In this document: positions 4,736 through 59,057 of the stretch, in pieces
Position numbering within the stretch: the first letter of the stretch is position 1
Layout of the letters: each line of letters opens with the position of its first letter
Assembly: GCA_026195275.1 (NCBI GenBank)
Contig: JAPHQU010000001.1
Location: 77,712 to 141,711 of the forward strand
Direction: 5' to 3'
Length of the DNA: 64,000 bases
From: Minisyncoccota bacterium
Lineage (GTDB): Bacteria > Patescibacteriota > Minisyncoccia > Phycocordibacterales > JABMNX01
The notes under the pieces: generated by a model
Database searches by the model: none
The model's input: only the letters and a program-made list of their open reading frames with translations
What the model was told of the DNA's origin: nothing
Translations under genes and position numbers: made by a program

Positions 4736-4740
4736 ATTTG

Positions 4741-4814
4741 TCCGTCCTCCAGGATTTGAACCTGGGACCGCCAAGATATAAGCTTGGTGCTCTAACCAAC
4801 TGAGCTAAGGACGG
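4741..4814 (-). tRNA. tRNA with anticodon UAU (AUA-decoding tRNA-Ile2-like); C1-G72 acceptor
   Basis: revcomp CCGTCCT-TA-GCTC-AGTTGGTTA-GAGC-A-CCAAG-CTTATAT-CTTGG-CGGTC-CCAGG-TTCAAAT-CCTGG-AGGACGG-A folds as canonical cloverleaf; anticodon loop CUUAUAU gives UAU. Confidence 0.7.
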
Positions 4815-7832: not shown

Positions 7833-8242
7833 GGGGATGATCGGCTTCGACAATGAAGATATCTTATCTATGTGCAAGGGAGCAGACCAGAACTGCTTAA
7901 AAAGCTGGAACACAATACGTGCAAAGAAATCTGCACTTGGAATGCTTTCACCTTTCCAGATGAAAAACTTCCAGTTCGCTTACGCACAAGCCTAAGCGAC
8001 CATCAGTACGTTTGACGTCCGATATGACGACACTGGTGTAACCCCAATCGGTCTAGGGTGCGCGATTGCCTCGACGCACATCTGAAACTAAGAGACTCGA
8101 CGTGATGTGATTTTGTTTGTTTCAAACACACCACGTTCAAACAGATCCTGATCTTGTATCTGGGTCAAAAAGACAAACTAGCCCTCTGTAGAATCATTTA
8201 TGAGACCTTTCTTGGACGCGGATTCGATTTCCGCCATCTCCA
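7833..8242 (+). ncRNA. ssrA: transfer-messenger RNA (tmRNA, SsrA); tag reading frame ends ...KNFQFAYAQA*
   Basis: 5' GGGGAUGAUCGGCUUCGAC matches tmRNA 5' consensus; 3' end GCGGA-UUCGAUU-UCCGC-CAUCUCC-A gives T arm and acceptor pairing with 5' GGGGAUG including a G3-U70 pair; internal ORF in frame ending GCT TAC GCA CAA GCC TAA (7978..7995); gene directly downstream of smpB. Confidence 0.8.
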
Positions 8243-8310
8243 CATTTATACCAATATGGACCAAAACAGACCGCTTTGTACCAATATGTACAGGTGGTTT
8301 TTTGGTACTC

Positions 8311-54354: not shown

Positions 54355-55518
54355 ATGACAGACAGTAAAAAAGGTGCAGAAACACTTTACACAAACCTGG
54401 ATATTACTAACCAAGAAGGGTCTGAGGTGAAGATTAGTGGCGAGATCCCCACTGAGGTGCAGGTACCATACCGCGAGAAAGCCATCAAGAAGCTTGGCGA
54501 AAACGCGACAATCGACGGCTTTCGCAAGGGACACATCCCCGAGAAGGTGCTCGTGGAGAAAGTCGGCGAGGAGCGGGTCTTGCACGAGGTTGCTGAGATG
54601 GCAATCACGGATATCTACCCTGCTATCGTGATTAAAAACAAGCTCGATGTGATCGGGCGACCACAGGTATCGATCACCAAGCTTGCCGCGGGAAATCCGA
54701 TCGGCTTCTCTATCACCACCGCGGTGATGCCGGAGGTTTCCCTTCCCGACCACAAGAAGATCGCTGAGGAGGTCATGAAGGAGAAAGACGACCTCGAAGT
54801 GACCGACGCAGACGTGGAGAAGGTGCTCACTGAAGTACGCCAAGGTAAAGCACGTTTTGATAAAGCAAAAGCCGAAGCGGAGGCAAAAGAGAGCGGTGCA
54901 GACGGAGGAGAAAATGAAGAGGCAAAAGACAGCAAAGAAGACCTTGAGGAAGAACTCCCTGAACTCGATGATGCATTCATTGCAACACTCGGTGGCGACT
55001 TCAAAACTGTTAAGGAATTCGAGGAGCGCGTCCGTAAAGACCTTGGTGTAGAGAAAGAACGCAAAGCACGTGAAAAGAAGCGTGTCACACTTTCAGAGAA
55101 GCTCATTGAAGAGGCAAAAGCTGACCTTCCAAAAGTCATGGTTGAGAGTGAGCTCGACAAAATGCTAGCGCAGATGAAGGATGATGTGGCGCGCGCCGGC
55201 ATGAAGTTCGAAGATTATCTCACCCACGTGAAGAAAACCGAAGAAGATATGCGTGCGGAGTGGAAGGAACAGGCTGAGAAGCGTGCAAAACTTCAACTTG
55301 TACTCAATAAGATAGCGACCATGGAAGATATCCATGCCGACCATGATGAGGTACATAAGGAGATGGACAAGATTCTCGAGCAGTTCAAAGACGCCAACCC
55401 GGAGAACGTCCACATCTTTGTCGAAACTCAACTCACCAACGAGGCAGTGTTCAACTTCCTTGAGAACGGAGGAAAGAAAGATAGAAATAAGGAGGAAAAG
55501 CAAGAAGCTGGTCAGTAG
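54355..55518 (+). CDS. tig: trigger factor
   Basis: GFRKGHIP ribosome-binding signature, FKBP-like middle domain; ATG 54355 (track ORF starts GTG 54346). Confidence 0.9.
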   Translation: MTDSKKGAETLYTNLDITNQEGSEVKISGEIPTEVQVPYREKAIKKLGENATIDGFRKGHIPEKVLVEKVGEERVLHEVAEMAITDIYPAIVIKNKLDVIGRPQVSITKLAAGNPIGFSITTAVMPEVSLPDHKKIAEEVMKEKDDLEVTDADVEKVLTEVRQGKARFDKAKAEAEAKESGADGGENEEAKDSKEDLEEELPELDDAFIATLGGDFKTVKEFEERVRKDLGVEKERKAREKKRVTLSEKLIEEAKADLPKVMVESELDKMLAQMKDDVARAGMKFEDYLTHVKKTEEDMRAEWKEQAEKRAKLQLVLNKIATMEDIHADHDEVHKEMDKILEQFKDANPENVHIFVETQLTNEAVFNFLENGGKKDRNKEEKQEAGQ

Positions 55519-55533
55519 TCATCGGTCACCACA

Positions 55534-55574
55534 AAAACAAATGTCCGACATTAGATGTCGGACATTTGTTTTGG
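55534..55574 (+). terminator. intrinsic terminator AACAAATGTCCGACAT-TAG-ATGTCGGACATTTGTT + TTGGG
   Basis: 16-bp perfect stem after tig. Confidence 0.6.
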
Positions 55575-55633
55575 GAAGGGTTGTTTGTTCAAACTGATAA
55601 ATTTGCTAATATAGCCGTACCTAAGAAACAAAT

Positions 55634-56236
55634 ATGAAACACGAATTCAAACCAACAAAATCACAGCTCGTCCCCATGGTGATCGAGAAATCACAGTTCG
55701 GTGAGCGGGCCTTTGATATTTACTCACGACTTCTCAAGGAGCGCATTATTTTCCTCTCAGGGCCGATCAACGACGCAGTCGCAAACCTCGTCGTGGCGCA
55801 ACTCCTCTTCCTTCAGTCGGAAGACCCAAAGAAGGACGTCTTCCTCTACATCAATTCCCCGGGCGGCTCAGTCACCTCAACCATGGCAATGATCGACACG
55901 ATGAACCACATCAAACCGGACGTTGCGACCGTGTGTGTCGGCATGGCGGCTTCAGGTGGCGCATGGACACTCGCCGCAGGCAAGAAAGGCAAGCGCTTCG
56001 CGCTCCCAAACGCAGAAGTGATGATCCACCAGCCGCTTGGCGGCGCCGAAGGGCAAGCAACCGACATTGAGATCACCGCGCGCTGGATCCTCAAGACCAA
56101 AGAGCGCATGACCAAGATGATGGCGGACTTCACCGGGCAAGACGCAAAGACGATCGAGCGCGACATCGACCGCGACTTCTGGATGACCGCCCAGGAAGCG
56201 AAGAAATATGGCGTCGTCGATGAAGTCTTAAAATAA
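55634..56236 (+). CDS. clpP: ATP-dependent Clp protease proteolytic subunit ClpP
   Basis: Ser-His-Asp contexts [15 protein letters not shown]; 200 aa; no clpX follows. Confidence 0.95.
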
Positions 56237-56361
56237 GACCCGTGTCTTGTTTGTCATCGACGACGAGACGGAGGCATATTGCGAGCCTGCGAGCAAAGCC
56301 GAGCCCGGGCAGGAGGTTCTTAGTGAAGATGAGTGCGAAGCACGAAATCTGAGCTTAGAAA

Positions 56362-56392
56362 CCTGACGCTGTCGATGAGGTGCTCAAATAAG
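56362..56392 (+). repeat. DR1: displaced copy of clpP 3' end (encodes ...DAVDEVLK*)
   Basis: cctgacgctgtcgatgaggtgctcaaataag; 29/31 identical to DR2; translates to clpP C-terminal heptapeptide VDEVLK + stop; followed by own terminator 56424..56455. Confidence 0.6.
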
Positions 56393-56462
56393 TTTAAAGT
56401 AGAAAGTTAGAAGTTATAAAGCAAAAACCTTACGATATATCGTAAGGTTTTTAGATTGGTGG

Positions 56463-56493
56463 CCTGACGTTGTCGATGAGGTGCTGAAATAAG
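56463..56493 (+). repeat. DR2: second displaced copy of clpP 3' end (encodes ...DVVDEVLK*)
   Basis: cctgacgttgtcgatgaggtgctgaaataag; followed by hairpin AAACGTCACACATATGTGTGACGTTT. Confidence 0.6.
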
Positions 56494-56546
56494 CAAAAGA
56501 AGAATTTTCTAAAACAAACGTCACACATATGTGTGACGTTTGTTTT

Positions 56547-56569
56547 ACTTGGAGGTCGAGCCTCCAAGT
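56547..56569. repeat. 23-bp perfect palindrome ACTTGGAGGTCGAGCCTCCAAGT (left boundary of cargo segment)
   Basis: second near-identical copy at 57232..57254, both preceded by TTTTACTTGG. Confidence 0.6.
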
Positions 56570-56649
56570 AAAAAATACAATAAAACTGGACAGAGTTTAT
56601 ATTTTGTGTTTATATTACCCCCAGACATAGATACGGAAGGAGAGAAGAT

Positions 56650-57183
56650 ATGACCGATACGTATGGTGCTCAAGAGGCCCAAGACCTGATTGACCTCTCG
56701 GTAAAGGTTGAGGGTTTCGACAACTGGCATGATGCACTCGCCACGGAAATCGAGATTGGGGGCATCTGGGCAAAAGAGACCGGTAAGACGAAAGCGTCCT
56801 TGCTCGAGGTCTGCGACGTCATGGCGCGAATCAACAGAATATCCCGCGAAATCGCGTACTTTTCCACGCTCATCAATGAGGGCTACCAGCTCGAGGATGC
56901 CGTGGTGAGCTTCCGAGGCGACGAAGAAGACGCATGGGGGAAATGCACCTGGATCAAAGATCATCCCAGCTACAAAGACCCTGAACACCGTCTGCGCGAC
57001 ATGTTCAAGTCCGATTGTGCTATCTCGTTCGCCAGTGCATTTTTCGACACCGAGCATGCCGGTGAGCAGAGGTTCACCCTGCAGTCGGTCGCCGTCTGCA
57101 ACGGCTTCTTGTTCCACAAGACGATCCTGTTTCACCGAGTCGTCTTTTCCAAGCCGAAACAAACTGCGGAAGAAGCCGCCTGA
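56650..57183 (+). CDS. hypothetical 177-aa protein (cargo gene of putative decayed integrated element)
   Basis: strong RBS GGAAGGAGAGAAG 6 nt before ATG; own terminator 57198..57231; no recognisable motif. Confidence 0.5.
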   Translation: MTDTYGAQEAQDLIDLSVKVEGFDNWHDALATEIEIGGIWAKETGKTKASLLEVCDVMARINRISREIAYFSTLINEGYQLEDAVVSFRGDEEDAWGKCTWIKDHPSYKDPEHRLRDMFKSDCAISFASAFFDTEHAGEQRFTLQSVAVCNGFLFHKTILFHRVVFSKPKQTAEEAA

Positions 57184-57197
57184 ATCGGACTTGCAAT

Positions 57198-57231
57198 GGC
57201 CACCCCACCCTGGGGTGGCCTTTTTCATTTT
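57198..57231 (+). terminator. intrinsic terminator GGCCACCCCA-CCC-TGGGGTGGCC + TTTTTCATTTT
   Basis: 10-bp perfect GC stem 14 nt after ORF stop. Confidence 0.6.
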
Positions 57232-57254
57232 ACTTGGAGGTCGGACCTCCAAGT
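57232..57254. repeat. 23-bp perfect palindrome ACTTGGAGGTCGGACCTCCAAGT (right boundary)
   Basis: direct repeat of 56547..56569 with loop GA/AG swap. Confidence 0.6.
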
Positions 57255-57527
57255 GGTAAATTCGACAAAGCTGAAAACCCGTGATATGTTGAGGATGTAG
57301 ACTTATTGAATTAAATTTGAAACCTGAGGACCTGCTCACCATCTCGACACAGAGAATATGAACAGGTTCCGTGCTTCCCCGCCCGACCGAGACGACCGAA
57401 AATACCTTGCGTGAATACCCTATTTTTACCCCATGATCTTCACTCATCGAAACATCTCACTGAAACGGTAGCAACACAAGCGAAAAGCAAGGTTTCTTGC
57501 CCTATCCTACGGTAGGCTAAGAACCAT

Positions 57528-59057
57528 ATGTCATTAAAAGTAATACTTGTTCTGCTCATCCTTGCAGGACTCTTCGGTACCGCCTTTGGGTACTTCCTCC
57601 GGTGGATCATCTCCCTCGGAAAACGCGGCTCGATGGAGCTCGAGATCAAGCAAATGATGCTCGAGGCTCGCGAAGAGGCAAAGCAAATCGTCCAAGATGC
57701 GGAGACCAAGGCCGAAGAAACAAAAAAACAACTCCACAGTGAGTCAAAAGAGAAAGAATCGCAGCTGAAGCGAACAGAAGACCGCCTTGTGAAGAAGGAG
57801 GAGCTTTTGGATAAGCGTCAGGGCGATATCGACGCTGATGTAGAGGGTCTTAAGCAGAAAATTGAGGAGGTTCGCGCACTCAAAGAGCGTGCAAACACAC
57901 TCATCGAGGAGCGCGAAGCGGCACTTGAGAAAACATTGCACCTGAGCCAAACAGAGGCGAAGACTGAGCTCTTTAACCTGCTTGAGAAACAGCACGAGGA
58001 GGATATCCTTGTGCGTCTGCAAAAGCTCGAGATCTCCGGCAAGGAACGACTCGACCGAAAAGCGAAGGATATCCTCACCACCTCGATCCATCGTCTCGGC
58101 AACTCGGTGATCGACGATATTATGGCGACCTCGATCCAGATCCCGTCTGACGAGGTGAAAGGAAAGATTATCGGTAAGGAAGGGCGCAACATTAAAGCGT
58201 TTGAACGTGCGACCGGTGTTGACGTTATCATTGACGATACGCCAAACATGATCACCATCTCATCGTTTGACCCGGTACGCCGCCATATTGCGTGCATTGC
58301 CCTTGAAAACCTCATCACCGATGGACGTATCCAACCAGCAAAAATTGAGGAACTCGTCGGTAAAGCAAAAGACGAGGTGAATAAAACGATAAAAGAGAAG
58401 GGTGAGCAGGCCGCCTACGAAGCAGGTGTGCACAACCTCGACCCGCGCGTAATCGCGATTCTCGGCCGACTCCACTTCCGCACCAGTTACGGTCAGAATG
58501 TGCTCTACCACTCGGTTGAGATGGCACACATCGCCGGTATGCTTGCCGAGGAACTCGGCGCAGACCCGTATGTCGCTCGTGCGGGGGCACTTCTACACGA
58601 CCTTGGTAAAGCGGTCGACCACGAGGTGCAAGGCACACACGTTGAGATTGGTCGGCGTATTCTCCAGAAATTCGGCGTTGATGAAGCAATCGTTAAAGCA
58701 ATGCAGGCACACCACGAAGAATACCCGTACGACACACCCGAATCGATCATCGTGCAGGTAGCCGACGCTATCTCAGGCGGACGCCCCGGGGCACGACGCG
58801 ACAGCGTTGAAAACTACATCCAGCGCCTTGAAGACCTTGAAGCTATTGCAAACGGGTTTCCCGGCGTTGATAAGAGTTACGCAATCCAAGCAGGTCGTGA
58901 GATCCGCGTGTTTGTAACACCAGAGAAGGTTTCTGACCTTGAAGCAAAGAAACTCGCGCGAAATATCGCGCTCCAGATTGAGAATGAGCTGAAATACCCC
59001 GGCGAGATCAAGGTAAATGTGATCCGCGAGTCTCGCTCGATCGAGATGGCGCGGTAG
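57528..59057 (+). CDS. rny: ribonuclease Y
   Basis: N-terminal TM helix, coiled coil, KH domain, HD domain (LLHDLGK). Confidence 0.9.
   Translation: MSLKVILVLLILAGLFGTAFGYFLRWIISLGKRGSMELEIKQMMLEAREEAKQIVQDAETKAEETKKQLHSESKEKESQLKRTEDRLVKKEELLDKRQGDIDADVEGLKQKIEEVRALKERANTLIEEREAALEKTLHLSQTEAKTELFNLLEKQHEEDILVRLQKLEISGKERLDRKAKDILTTSIHRLGNSVIDDIMATSIQIPSDEVKGKIIGKEGRNIKAFERATGVDVIIDDTPNMITISSFDPVRRHIACIALENLITDGRIQPAKIEELVGKAKDEVNKTIKEKGEQAAYEAGVHNLDPRVIAILGRLHFRTSYGQNVLYHSVEMAHIAGMLAEELGADPYVARAGALLHDLGKAVDHEVQGTHVEIGRRILQKFGVDEAIVKAMQAHHEEYPYDTPESIIVQVADAISGGRPGARRDSVENYIQRLEDLEAIANGFPGVDKSYAIQAGREIRVFVTPEKVSDLEAKKLARNIALQIENELKYPGEIKVNVIRESRSIEMAR

What the first reader, a model, noticed from the sequence alone, without database searches (positions are those of the whole stretch)
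56544..57256. Unknown 177-aa gene with strong RBS and private terminator, bounded by two 23-bp perfect palindromes (ACTTGGAGGTCG[AG/GA]CCTCCAAGT)
The segment between clpP and rny is delimited by near-identical hairpin-forming palindromes at 56547-56569 and 57232-57254, both preceded by TTTTACTTGG. It lies right after the displaced clpP-end copies. Its single ORF (56650-57183) has no recognisable domain, an excellent SD sequence (GGAAGGAGAGAAG) and its own 10-bp GC terminator. This cassette-like organisation (boundary hairpin, one gene, terminator, boundary hairpin) next to integration scars suggests mobile or accessory cargo such as a defence, immunity or toxin-type gene of unknown family.
Basis: partly seen in the sequence, partly recalled or inferred. 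Interest (0 to 1): 0.65.

Follow-up and report, generated by a model that had tools for sequence, protein, structure and literature searches.

The report
Orphan gene flanked by REP-like hairpins
A small gene of unknown function has been inserted between two core genes of an ultra-small (CPR) bacterium. The two hairpins that bracket it belong to a widespread, seemingly undescribed family of selfish palindromic repeats, linked to a RayT-like transposase, that in other CPR genomes even sits in frame inside housekeeping genes.

Summary
Two copies of ACTTGGAGG-N5-CCTCCAAGT (56547-56569, 57232-57254) bracket a monocistronic 177-aa gene with its own promoter-like site, SD and terminator.

The window is a Candidatus Pacebacteria MAG. 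In 80 related species tig-clpP-rny-HU is conserved, and none has this gene there. The median clpP-rny gap is 284 nt against 1292 here, so the gene is a lineage-specific insertion.

The protein belongs to a small metagenome-only family of about 55 clusters. It has no Pfam, NCBIfam, PHROG or PADLOC hit. A confident AF2 model (pLDDT 82) has no Foldseek match in PDB or BFVD. Its function is unknown.

The palindromes are neither terminators nor attC sites. The same arms occur in at least 153 copies in at least 120 metagenome stretches, mostly groundwater samples. About half lie in frame inside genes such as ksgA, rsmI, ligA and gatB. In many loci they flank a roughly 215-aa Y1/HUH transposase gene, which JGI labels RayT, on both sides, spanning 677-728 nt. 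That is a REP/RAYT ("REPtron") layout. The window pair spans 685 nt but holds no Y1 gene.

The repeat around ORF177 extends to 64 nt and includes a diverged copy of the conserved rny promoter.

Verdict: an accessory gene bounded by REP-like elements. This is a new variant of a known kind. That the hairpins mobilised the gene is inferred, not shown.

The parts
55634..56236 (+). clpP, the left-hand core neighbour
   Evidence: ORF. 64-79% aa identity to clpP in 76 related loci, directly upstream of rny on the same strand in 58.
56238..56392 (+). Conserved structured element after clpP. It ends in a pseudo-copy of the ClpP C-terminal codons plus stop (E2, 56362-56392). This is context, not part of the cassette.
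   Evidence: Shared with L012, L014 and L015. RNAalifold pairs the clpP 3' codons with 56255-56265 and finds compensatory changes. No Rfam hit.
56463..56493 (+). Third copy of the clpP 3' end (E3). It is followed by the hairpin terminator at 56510-56547.
   Evidence: Repeat family D2 and inverted repeat I2. The hairpin folds at -17.4 kcal/mol.
56547..56569 (.). REP-like palindrome, copy A (ACTTGGAGG TCGAG CCTCCAAGT). The stem extends to 56543-56573.
   Evidence: The arms are identical to at least 153 metagenome copies.
56543..56606 (+). Left copy of the 64-nt direct repeat: TTTT, the palindrome, and a diverged copy of the rny promoter region.
   Evidence: Repeat family D1. The 22/37 match beyond the palindrome is significant.
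56587..56616 (+). Promoter-like site for ORF177 (TGGACA-18-TATATT).
   Evidence: This is a consensus match only.
56635..56647 (+). Shine-Dalgarno region, GGAAGGAGAGAAG.
   Evidence: Nucleotide homology to the ORF177-homologue loci begins at about 56635.
56650..57183 (+). ORF177. It belongs to an unannotated family seen only in metagenomes. The contexts examined look like Patescibacteria.
   Evidence: AF2 pLDDT 82.4. No fold or family match.
57198..57231 (+). Intrinsic terminator of ORF177: a 10-bp GC-rich stem followed by a T run.
57232..57254 (.). REP-like palindrome, copy B (ACTTGGAGGTC G GACCTCCAAGT). It lies 7 nt upstream of the rny -35 element.
   Evidence: It is absent upstream of rny in the relatives.
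57228..57291 (+). Right copy of the 64-nt direct repeat. It includes the conserved rny promoter TCGACA-17-TG-n-TATGTT (57262-57290).
   Evidence: The promoter is conserved in L012-L016.
57528..59057 (+). rny (RNase Y), the right-hand core neighbour, with a leader of about 230 nt.
   Evidence: 67-87% aa identity in 80 species.

Best explanation
ORF177 is a lineage-specific accessory gene of unknown biochemical function. It sits as an independent transcription unit in the otherwise conserved clpP-rny spacer of a Paceibacteria (CPR) genome.

The two boundary palindromes are copies of a REP-like hairpin repeat, ACTTGGAGG-N5-CCTCCAAGT, that is widespread in Patescibacteria. In other genomes this repeat brackets a RayT-like Y1/HUH transposase gene, giving a REPtron layout. 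It is also scattered through intergenic DNA and lies in frame within genes.

Around ORF177 the repeat is the well-conserved core of a 64-nt direct duplication. That duplication also contains a diverged copy of the rny promoter.

Most likely mechanism (inferred). The hairpin forms in single-stranded DNA and is the substrate of a Y1 transposase acting in trans, or simply a recombination hot spot. A roughly 0.7-kb segment carrying ORF177 entered at, or together with, such a hairpin next to the rny promoter. This left hairpin-cored direct repeats at both joints. Recombination between these repeats could excise the gene again.

Shown: the gene is an insertion; the hairpins belong to the repeat family; the family is associated with the Y1 gene; the 64-nt duplication exists.

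Inferred: that the hairpins caused the insertion, that a Y1 enzyme acts on them, and everything about the protein's role.
For: 1. Insertion. The tig-clpP-rny-HU order is conserved in 80 species, and ORF177 is absent from all of them. The median clpP-rny gap is 284 nt against 1292 nt in the window.

2. Variable context of the homologues. They lie after tRNA-Glu, next to an rve integrase, after fpg, or between relA and a glycosyltransferase gene. Nucleotide homology is confined to the ORF plus its RBS.

3. Repeat family. The loops vary between loci but are the same, or reverse-complementary, within a locus.

4. Coding copies. 78 of 148 unique copies lie in long open frames, almost always in two of the three frames. 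The RsmI and LigA alignments show them as 4-7-aa insertions relative to homologues.

5. Y1 association. 23 of the 120 loci carry the Y1 gene. Ten of those have palindromes just before the ATG and just after the stop, spanning 677-728 nt.

6. Identity of the Y1 protein. Pfam Y1_Tnp scores 30.5 bits against a cutoff of 23. The best NCBIfam match is REP-associated tyrosine transposase. At least 7,977 homologues exist; those that carry a source name are called Patescibacteria, Paceibacterota, Kaiserbacteria or Minisyncoccia transposase, or RayT.

7. Local rarity. The window has only these two copies, and 0.93 Mb of related loci has none. Two copies landing on either side of the one inserted gene is unlikely by chance.

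8. Close pairs. Pairs less than 1 kb apart are otherwise almost confined to Y1 units. One further case flanks a methyltransferase-like gene (L145).

9. Extended repeat. The 64-nt repeat matches at 22/37 beyond the palindrome, while TTTT plus the palindrome matches at 25/27.
Against: - No Y1 gene lies in the 64-kb window. The rest of the genome could not be read.
- No empty site close enough to define the joints at nucleotide level was found, so the insertion boundaries are not fixed.
- The 37-nt similarity beyond the palindrome could partly reflect convergence of two promoters.
- The two hairpins may have inserted independently, after the gene arrived.
- ORF177 homologues elsewhere lack the palindrome, so the gene does not generally travel with it.
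- The canonical REP tag (GTAG or CGTC) is absent.
- The Y1 protein scores below NCBIfam's RayT cutoff (28 bits against 80).
- No cleavage or transposition activity is known for this family.
Confidence: 0.6

Rival explanations
1. Coincidental flanking. ORF177 was gained by some unrelated route, such as illegitimate recombination at the integration hot spot downstream of clpP. Two REP-like hairpins later inserted independently into the two new terminator-promoter gaps. They play no part in the gene's mobility.
For: In other genomes the repeat lands in many unrelated intergenic and coding sites. ORF177 homologues elsewhere have no palindrome. The clpP 3' region shows separate integration-type repeats.
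Against: There are only two copies in 64 kb, and none in 0.93 Mb of relatives. Both sit at the same gene, share the TTTT flank and the TCG start of the loop, and are embedded in a longer 64-nt direct repeat. My rough estimate is that two random intergenic hits would be adjacent about 3% of the time.
Confidence: 0.22
2. Operator sites. The palindrome is the binding site of a dimeric transcription factor that co-regulates ORF177 and rny. It is centred about 54 nt upstream of each predicted start.
For: A 9-N5-9 inverted repeat lies just upstream of the -35 element of two promoter-like sites, in the same register. The arms are far better conserved than the flanks.
Against: The same arms occur in frame inside housekeeping genes. 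They flank and interrupt Y1 transposase genes, form tandem dimers, and carry genome-specific loops. That is the behaviour of a selfish repeat, not of a regulon. The rny promoters of the relatives lack it. ORF177 shows no DNA-binding domain.
Confidence: 0.07
3. Integron-like or site-specific cassette. The palindromes are attC- or dif-like recombination sites used by a tyrosine recombinase, and ORF177 is a cassette.
For: Direct repeats with a palindromic core bracket a single gene. The region lies next to the clpP-end duplications that are typical of integrase-mediated integration.
Against: The sites are 23 bp and lack the attC R/L box architecture and the GTTRRRY core. The ORF has its own promoter-like site and terminator. 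There is no array, and no recombinase among ten ORFs scanned within about 9 kb. ORF177 lies outside the clpP-end repeats. In other genomes the gene associated with the palindrome is a Y1 transposase, not an integrase.
Confidence: 0.04
4. Ordinary transcription terminators or RNA-stability hairpins with no repeat-family meaning.
For: They are stable hairpins in intergenic DNA, right after genuine terminators.
Against: No U tail follows on either strand, and the terminator scan did not call them. All other hairpins in the window have unique sequences, while this one recurs. It also recurs in hundreds of copies in other genomes.
Confidence: 0.03

Closest known systems
REP elements and REPtrons (RAYT / TnpA_REP systems of Proteobacteria and others; Nunvar 2010, Bertels and Rainey 2011, Ton-Hoang 2012 are cited from my own knowledge; Di Nocera 2013 is PMC3733652)
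   Same: A short palindromic repeat (23-31 bp) dispersed in many copies. Singlets, inverted pairs and tandem dimers all occur. A Y1/HUH transposase-like gene is bracketed by the repeat, and repeat variants are genome-specific. Intragenic REPs are also known.
   Different: There is no GTAG or CGTC tag. About half of the copies lie in frame in coding sequence, including inside the Y1 gene itself at two hot spots. The Y1 protein is about 215 aa with a long C-terminal extension and scores below NCBIfam's RayT cutoff. The hosts are Patescibacteria, for which my two literature searches found no description of REP/RAYT. In this window the repeat is low-copy and brackets a non-transposase gene.
IS200/IS605-family elements and their non-autonomous derivatives (PATEs) (own knowledge)
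   Same: Y1/HUH transposase. Element ends are marked by subterminal hairpins rather than terminal inverted repeats. The unit size is about 0.7 kb, as in IS200. Cargo-carrying or transposase-less derivatives are mobilised in trans.
   Different: The hairpins around the Y1 genes are mostly in inverted orientation, as in REPtrons. Solo hairpins are abundant. No target tetranucleotide or precise ends could be defined. The window unit is flanked by a 64-nt direct duplication, which peel-and-paste transposition does not make.
Rickettsia palindromic elements (RPE) (and own knowledge)
   Same: Selfish palindromic repeats tolerated in frame inside functional protein-coding genes.
   Different: RPEs are about 100-150 bp, carry a CGTC tag, and have no associated transposase. 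Here the inserts are 23-29 nt, adding about 4-9 residues.
Integron gene cassettes and attC sites (own knowledge)
   Same: A single gene delimited by hairpin-forming imperfect palindromes that act as single-stranded recombination substrates.
   Different: The size and architecture of the site differ. The ORF has its own promoter and terminator. There is no intI, attI or array. The associated enzyme family is HUH, not tyrosine recombinase.

Membership tests
REP / REPtron (RAYT-associated repeats) | Short (20-40 bp) palindromic sequence repeated many times | tested here: met
   23 bp with arms 9+9. Only 2 copies in this 64-kb window.
REP / REPtron (RAYT-associated repeats) | Conserved GTAG (or CGTC) tetranucleotide at one end of the hairpin | tested here: not met
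   The ends are ACTT and AAGT. The flanks vary and often just extend the stem. The definition is from PMC3733652.
REP / REPtron (RAYT-associated repeats) | A Y1/HUH transposase gene bracketed by the repeats | tested here: met
   Met in other genomes. 23 of the 120 loci carry the Y1 gene, and 10 of them have copies on both sides spanning 677-728 nt. Not met in the window itself, which has no Y1 gene.
REP / REPtron (RAYT-associated repeats) | The transposase is a RAYT (reaches the curated RayT model) | tested here: inconclusive
   Pfam Y1_Tnp scores 30.5 bits against a cutoff of 23 for one protein and 21.9 for another. NCBIfam NF047646 is the best hit but scores only 25-28 bits against a cutoff of 80. 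JGI labels some members RayT. The HUH motif and a conserved Tyr are present.
REP / REPtron (RAYT-associated repeats) | Predominantly extragenic location | tested here: not met
   78 of 148 unique copies lie within long open frames. The RsmI and LigA alignments show them as insertions relative to homologues. The two window copies are extragenic.
IS200/IS605-type transposable unit | Encodes, or is mobilised by, a Y1 transposase and has hairpins at both ends | tested here: inconclusive
   Hairpins are present at both ends of the 685-bp unit. The unit and the window contain no transposase. The genome beyond the window is unavailable.
IS200/IS605-type transposable unit | Insertion 3' of a fixed tetra- or pentanucleotide, with no target duplication | not testable with these tools
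   No empty site of near-identical sequence was found. The closest relative has 87% Rny aa identity and unalignable spacers. The 64-nt direct repeat argues against this feature.
Integron cassette / attC | attC of about 57-141 bp with R''/L''/L'/R' boxes and a GTTRRRY core; a promoterless ORF with one attC at its 3' end | tested here: not met
   The site is 23 bp with no GTTRRRY. The ORF has a promoter-like site, an SD and a terminator, and there are two sites per gene.
Integron cassette / attC | An integron integrase (intI) and an array nearby | tested here: not met
   Ten ORFs scanned within about 9 kb are PilC, PilB, NusA, pyrophosphatase, a trypsin-like protease, MscS and UPF0102, plus three without any hit. 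tig, clpP, rny and HU were identified by homology. There is no array. The rest of the window was not scanned for recombinases.
Intrinsic terminator | GC-rich hairpin followed by a U run | tested here: not met
   The T run precedes the hairpins. Copy A is followed by A6 and copy B by GGTAAATTC. The scan listed neither.
Known protein families or defence systems (for ORF177) | A significant match to a curated profile or to a solved or viral structure | tested here: not met

The most novel reading that the evidence does not exclude
Hairpin-bounded units of about 0.7 kb are a general gene-shuffling vehicle in Patescibacteria. The RayT-like Y1 enzyme mobilises in trans any segment bracketed by two of its REP-like hairpins. 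ORF177 here and the methyltransferase-like gene in L145 would then be cargo that has taken the transposase's place in a REPtron. The same enzyme-hairpin system would also write 4-9-residue in-frame insertions into essential proteins across the phylum.
Probability: 0.15. Interest if true: 0.75.

Novelty: new variant of a known kind. Interest (0 to 1): 0.55.

Why it matters
CPR/Patescibacteria genomes are small and thought to be streamlined, and little is known about how they gain genes.

This locus gives a concrete example of a single orphan gene added between two core genes. It also led to a repeat/transposase system that appears to be both abundant and undescribed for the phylum. The system comprises at least 7,977 Y1 homologues and hundreds of hairpin copies.

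If the hairpins are Y1 substrates, the system would explain two things. One is local gene gain. The other is the short in-frame insertions in essential proteins such as KsgA, RsmI, LigA and GatB.

The hairpin would also offer a compact HUH-enzyme/ssDNA-hairpin pair for biochemical study.

The ORF177 family has a confidently predicted fold with no match in PDB or BFVD, which makes it a candidate new fold or function.

Tried and rejected
- Domain and family searches for ORF177. Pfam, NCBIfam, PADLOC and PHROGs on the protein gave nothing. Pfam and PHROGs on 50 family members gave only scattered single-member hits with E >= 0.0025.
- PDB sequence profile search: only E = 0.8 noise.
- Two AF2 models (pLDDT 73 and 82) searched with Foldseek against PDB (twice) and BFVD: no hit below E = 0.1. 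The weak recurring papain-like and NTF2-like rows have TM below 0.25 and were disregarded.
- ORF177 as a degenerate Y1 transposase: hhalign probability 0.1%.
- Phage, plasmid or viral origin of ORF177: no tblastn hit in phages or plasmids, and none in IMG/VR. The palindrome itself gives 0 hits in viral contigs.
- Rfam on 55400-57700: only chance hairpin hits.
- Extending the window through the contig index: the window's protein is not on record.
- Taxonomy of distant ORF177 relatives through cluster look-up: no names.
- The upstream palindrome in L008-L010 (AACACTAGT-N7-ACTAGTGTT) was considered as a sign that the family autoregulates through palindromes. I rejected this because the other homologue loci have nothing comparable.
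- A fuzzy-pattern script for the post-clpP element produced mostly noise.
Full report
**1. The observation**

The sequence at 56544-57256 is as described. ACTTGGAGGTCGAGCCTCCAAGT lies at 56547-56569 and ACTTGGAGGTCGGACCTCCAAGT at 57232-57254. With up to three mismatches these are the only matches in the 64-kb window, and none is expected by chance.

Copy B is a perfect 11+1+11 palindrome. Copy A is 9+5+9, and its TTTT/AAAA flanks extend the stem to 13 bp. As single-stranded DNA both fold far better than shuffles, at -12.9 and -9.9 kcal/mol.

Between them lie:
- a promoter-like site, TGGACA-18-TATATT, at 56587-56616;
- the SD GGAAGGAGAGAAG at 56635-56647;
- a 177-codon ORF at 56650-57183;
- a 10-bp GC-rich stem followed by a T run at 57198-57231.

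Neither palindrome is terminator-like. The T run precedes each hairpin and is the tail of the upstream terminator. The terminator scan did not list either one.

56543-56606 and 57228-57291 are 73% identical over 64 nt. The 37 nt beyond the palindrome match at 22/37. Only 3 of 63,884 windows of the 64 kb match that well, and no shuffle of 20,000 does. The right-hand copy contains the rny promoter.

**2. Where the window comes from, and whether the gene is core**

The exact protein is recorded as a hypothetical protein of a Candidatus Pacebacteria MAG, locus tag OQJ98_00865, on a 144-kb contig.

Using the window's RNase Y as a probe, I fetched 80 species of related Patescibacteria with 67-87% Rny identity. 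tblastn shows that tig-clpP-rny-HU is conserved almost everywhere. In 58 species clpP lies directly upstream of rny on the same strand. The median gap there is 284 nt, against 1292 nt in the window. No locus contains an ORF177 homologue.

The rny promoter (TTCGACA-17-TG-n-TATATT) is conserved in the closest relatives. None of them has the palindrome in front of it.

ORF177 is therefore a lineage-specific insertion between two core genes. Ten neighbouring ORFs scanned against Pfam are housekeeping genes or have no hit, and none is a recombinase.

**3. The protein**

The word-indexed search finds only ten close relatives of ORF177, at 52-67% identity and 177-179 aa. A full HMM scan of 1.84 billion representatives finds 55 clusters, 45 of them at E < 1e-10. 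They are 150-240 aa long.

Near-invariant positions are Q11, G22, W26, E67, G78, G97, W101, H105, Y108, T134, G138 and S146.

No Pfam, NCBIfam, PADLOC or PHROG model matches ORF177. Scans of 50 family members gave only scattered single-member hits with E >= 0.0025. No PDB sequence matches.

The family is unrelated to the Y1 transposases described below (hhalign probability 0.1%). There are no relatives in phage, plasmid or IMG/VR collections.

Homologues sit in unrelated contexts:
- after tRNA-Glu(CTC) (L001-L007);
- beside an rve integrase (L008-L010);
- after fpg (L214);
- between relA and a glycosyltransferase gene in a 206-kb contig that also carries ribosomal protein, parAB and mreBC genes (L091);
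- between TrmB-like and PaaX-like genes (L093).

Nucleotide homology between the window and the closest locus (72%) starts at the RBS and ends within the ORF.

I conclude that this is a real, soluble, stand-alone accessory protein of unknown function. Nothing supports a defence, toxin or immunity role. The conserved His, Glu, Tyr and Trp residues are compatible with an enzyme, but that is a guess.

**4. What the palindromes are**

Many sample names point to groundwater sites such as Hainich. A scan of viral contigs found none.

The 120 loci hold 153 copies. The properties of the family are as follows.

- *Loop.* The 5-nt loop is variable, with 45 variants.
- *Flanks.* Flanks often extend the stem, for example CCCC...GGGG or CACCA...TGGTG.
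- *Dimers.* Tandem or overlapping dimers occur.
- *Coding copies.* Of 148 unique copies, 78 lie inside long open frames. 47 are read as L-G-G-x-x-S-K, 30 as L-E-x-x-P-P-S, and only one in the third frame. Examples are KsgA, RsmI, a Dus-like protein, LigA (two different sites), GatB and Fmt. Alignments show them as 4-7-residue insertions relative to homologues that lack them.
- *Y1 association.* 23 of the 120 loci carry a gene of about 215 aa whose product has the HUH motif (NPNH[YF]HF), a conserved Tyr and an N-terminal GE[YF]YH[IV]YNRG. It hits Pfam Y1_Tnp (30.5 bits, cutoff 23). Its best NCBIfam match, below threshold, is REP-associated tyrosine transposase.
- *Position relative to the Y1 gene.* Palindromes lie 29-50 nt before its ATG and 4-22 nt after its stop. 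In ten loci both flanks are present, spanning 677-728 nt. Further copies occupy two hot spots inside the gene, read in frame.
- *Genome-specific variants.* Within a locus all loops are the same or reverse-complementary, which points to genome-specific variants.
- *Size of the Y1 family.* It has at least 7,977 members at E < 1e-10. Those that carry a source name are called transposase of Patescibacteria, Paceibacterota, Kaiserbacteria or Minisyncoccia, or 'REP element-mobilizing transposase RayT'.

This is the architecture of REP elements and REPtrons as defined in the literature (PMC3733652). It differs in three ways:
- there is no GTAG or CGTC tag;
- about half of the copies are intragenic and in frame, which recalls Rickettsia RPEs;
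- the host phylum is one for which two literature searches found no REP/RAYT report.

**5. How the palindromes relate to ORF177**

The repeat is not a property of the ORF177 family. No ORF177-homologue locus examined carries it, and no palindrome locus has an ORF177 homologue.

It is rare in this lineage. There are two copies in the 64-kb window and none in 0.93 Mb from the 80 relatives and the homologue loci. Both copies lie at the one gene that is an insertion.

In the palindrome-ascertained loci, 101 of 120 have a single copy in about 6.8 kb. Close pairs are almost confined to Y1 units. The exceptions are tandem dimers and L145, where a 604-nt pair brackets a 164-aa gene whose product carries a class I methyltransferase-like VLDVGGG motif.

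The window pair spans 685 nt, within the size range of the Y1 units, but it encloses a complete foreign transcription unit. It is the conserved core (25/27) of a 64-nt direct repeat whose remainder (22/37) is a diverged copy of the rny promoter region.

My reading is as follows. A segment carrying ORF177 was inserted at, or with, a REP-like hairpin next to the rny promoter. This left hairpin-cored direct repeats at both joints. The much higher conservation of the hairpin than of its flanks points to constraint, homogenisation or later arrival.

By analogy with IS200/IS605 TnpA and E. coli TnpA_REP (established knowledge), the hairpin is probably recognised as ssDNA by a Y1 enzyme supplied in trans. 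No such gene lies in the window, and I could not read the rest of the genome. This step is inference.

**6. Rival explanations**

- *Independent later insertion of two hairpins.* This cannot be excluded (0.22). It fits poorly with the rarity of the repeat here and with the extended 64-nt repeat.
- *Operator function* (0.07). The shared register upstream of both promoters suggests it. The family's behaviour elsewhere contradicts it.
- *An attC- or dif-like site* (0.04). It fails on size, core motif, cassette anatomy and associated enzyme.
- *Plain terminators* (0.03). They fail on anatomy and recurrence.

**7. The neighbouring 'scars'**

The clpP-end copies are real, but part of this region is old and structured. 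An element of 125-190 nt directly after the clpP stop is shared with L012, L014 and L015 and is absent from L011, L013 and L016.

Its 5' part pairs with the last codons of clpP, and 5 of 11 pairs show compensatory changes among only four sequences. A second helix also covaries. The element ends in a pseudo-copy of the ClpP C-terminus plus stop. Rfam has no model for it.

The window has one extra unit, E3 plus a different terminator. ORF177 lies to the right of E3, outside these repeats.

**8. Verdict**

The gene is accessory and insertion-borne, and the boundary hairpins do recur. But they are REP-like elements of a Patescibacteria RayT-like system, not cassette-specific or integron-like sites, and no function can yet be assigned to the protein.

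I rate the finding a new variant of a known kind, with moderate interest (0.55). Most of that interest lies in the repeat/transposase system and its in-frame copies in essential genes, not in ORF177 itself.

Noticed in passing
window 56238-56392 (and E3 at 56463-56493); L012 5563-5745, L014 5399-5625, L015 5309-5520: A conserved structured element follows the clpP stop codon. Its 5' part base-pairs with the last clpP codons, with 5 of 11 pairs compensatory among 4 sequences. A second helix (GGTTCTTAG/CTTAGAAACC) also covaries. The element ends in a pseudo-copy of the ClpP C-terminal codons plus stop. It is present in 3 of the 5 closest relatives. There is no Rfam match. It could be a miniature integrative-element remnant or a translation-coupled 3'-UTR switch.
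   Followed up: partly
metagenome loci, e.g. L199 7582 (ksgA), L180 2108 and L181 4963 (rsmI), L200 6405 and L174 8314 (ligA), L197 4207 (gatB), L194 3578 (fmt): The same 23-nt palindrome sits in frame inside essential genes of other Patescibacteria. It adds 4-9 residues (LGGxxSK or LExxPPS) relative to homologues that lack it.
   Followed up: yes
L100, L110, L122, L132, L141, L143, L167, L169, L184, L199 and others: A Y1/HUH (RayT-like) transposase gene of about 215 aa is bracketed by the palindrome, and often interrupted in frame by it at two hot spots (about nt 180 and nt 450). Loops are identical or reverse-complementary within a locus. The family has at least 7,977 members.
   Followed up: yes
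L145 143-769: A second example of palindrome-gene-palindrome with a non-transposase gene. The 164-aa product carries a class I methyltransferase-like VLDVGGG motif. The copies are 604 nt apart, with inverted loops TTCTT and AAGAA.
   Followed up: partly
window 57291-57527; L011-L022 upstream of rny: rny has a leader of about 230 nt behind a conserved promoter. A small covarying hairpin (GCGAG...CTCGC, GCGGA...TCCGC, GTGG...CCAC) lies directly before the ATG, and there is no obvious SD. This could be a translational control element for RNase Y.
   Followed up: no
window 4740-4814 (-): ARAGORN calls a tRNA-Ile with anticodon TAT. From my own knowledge, most bacteria decode AUA with a lysidine-modified CAU tRNA.
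   Followed up: no
L001-L007 (e.g. L004 2286-3050): In one lineage the ORF177 homologue always follows tRNA-Glu(CTC). About 150 nt of conserved upstream sequence begins right at the tRNA 3' end. PIF1 helicase or LAGLIDADG genes lie nearby. This may be another integration-prone site.
   Followed up: partly
L008 973-997 (also L009 and L010, 573-597): A different 9-N7-9 palindrome (AACACTAGT...ACTAGTGTT) lies about 100 nt upstream of the closest ORF177 homologue. That homologue is adjacent to an rve integrase gene.
   Followed up: no
window 7833-8243 (+): A tmRNA gene with a long predicted tag peptide, AKKSALGMLSPFQMKNFQFAYAQA.
   Followed up: no
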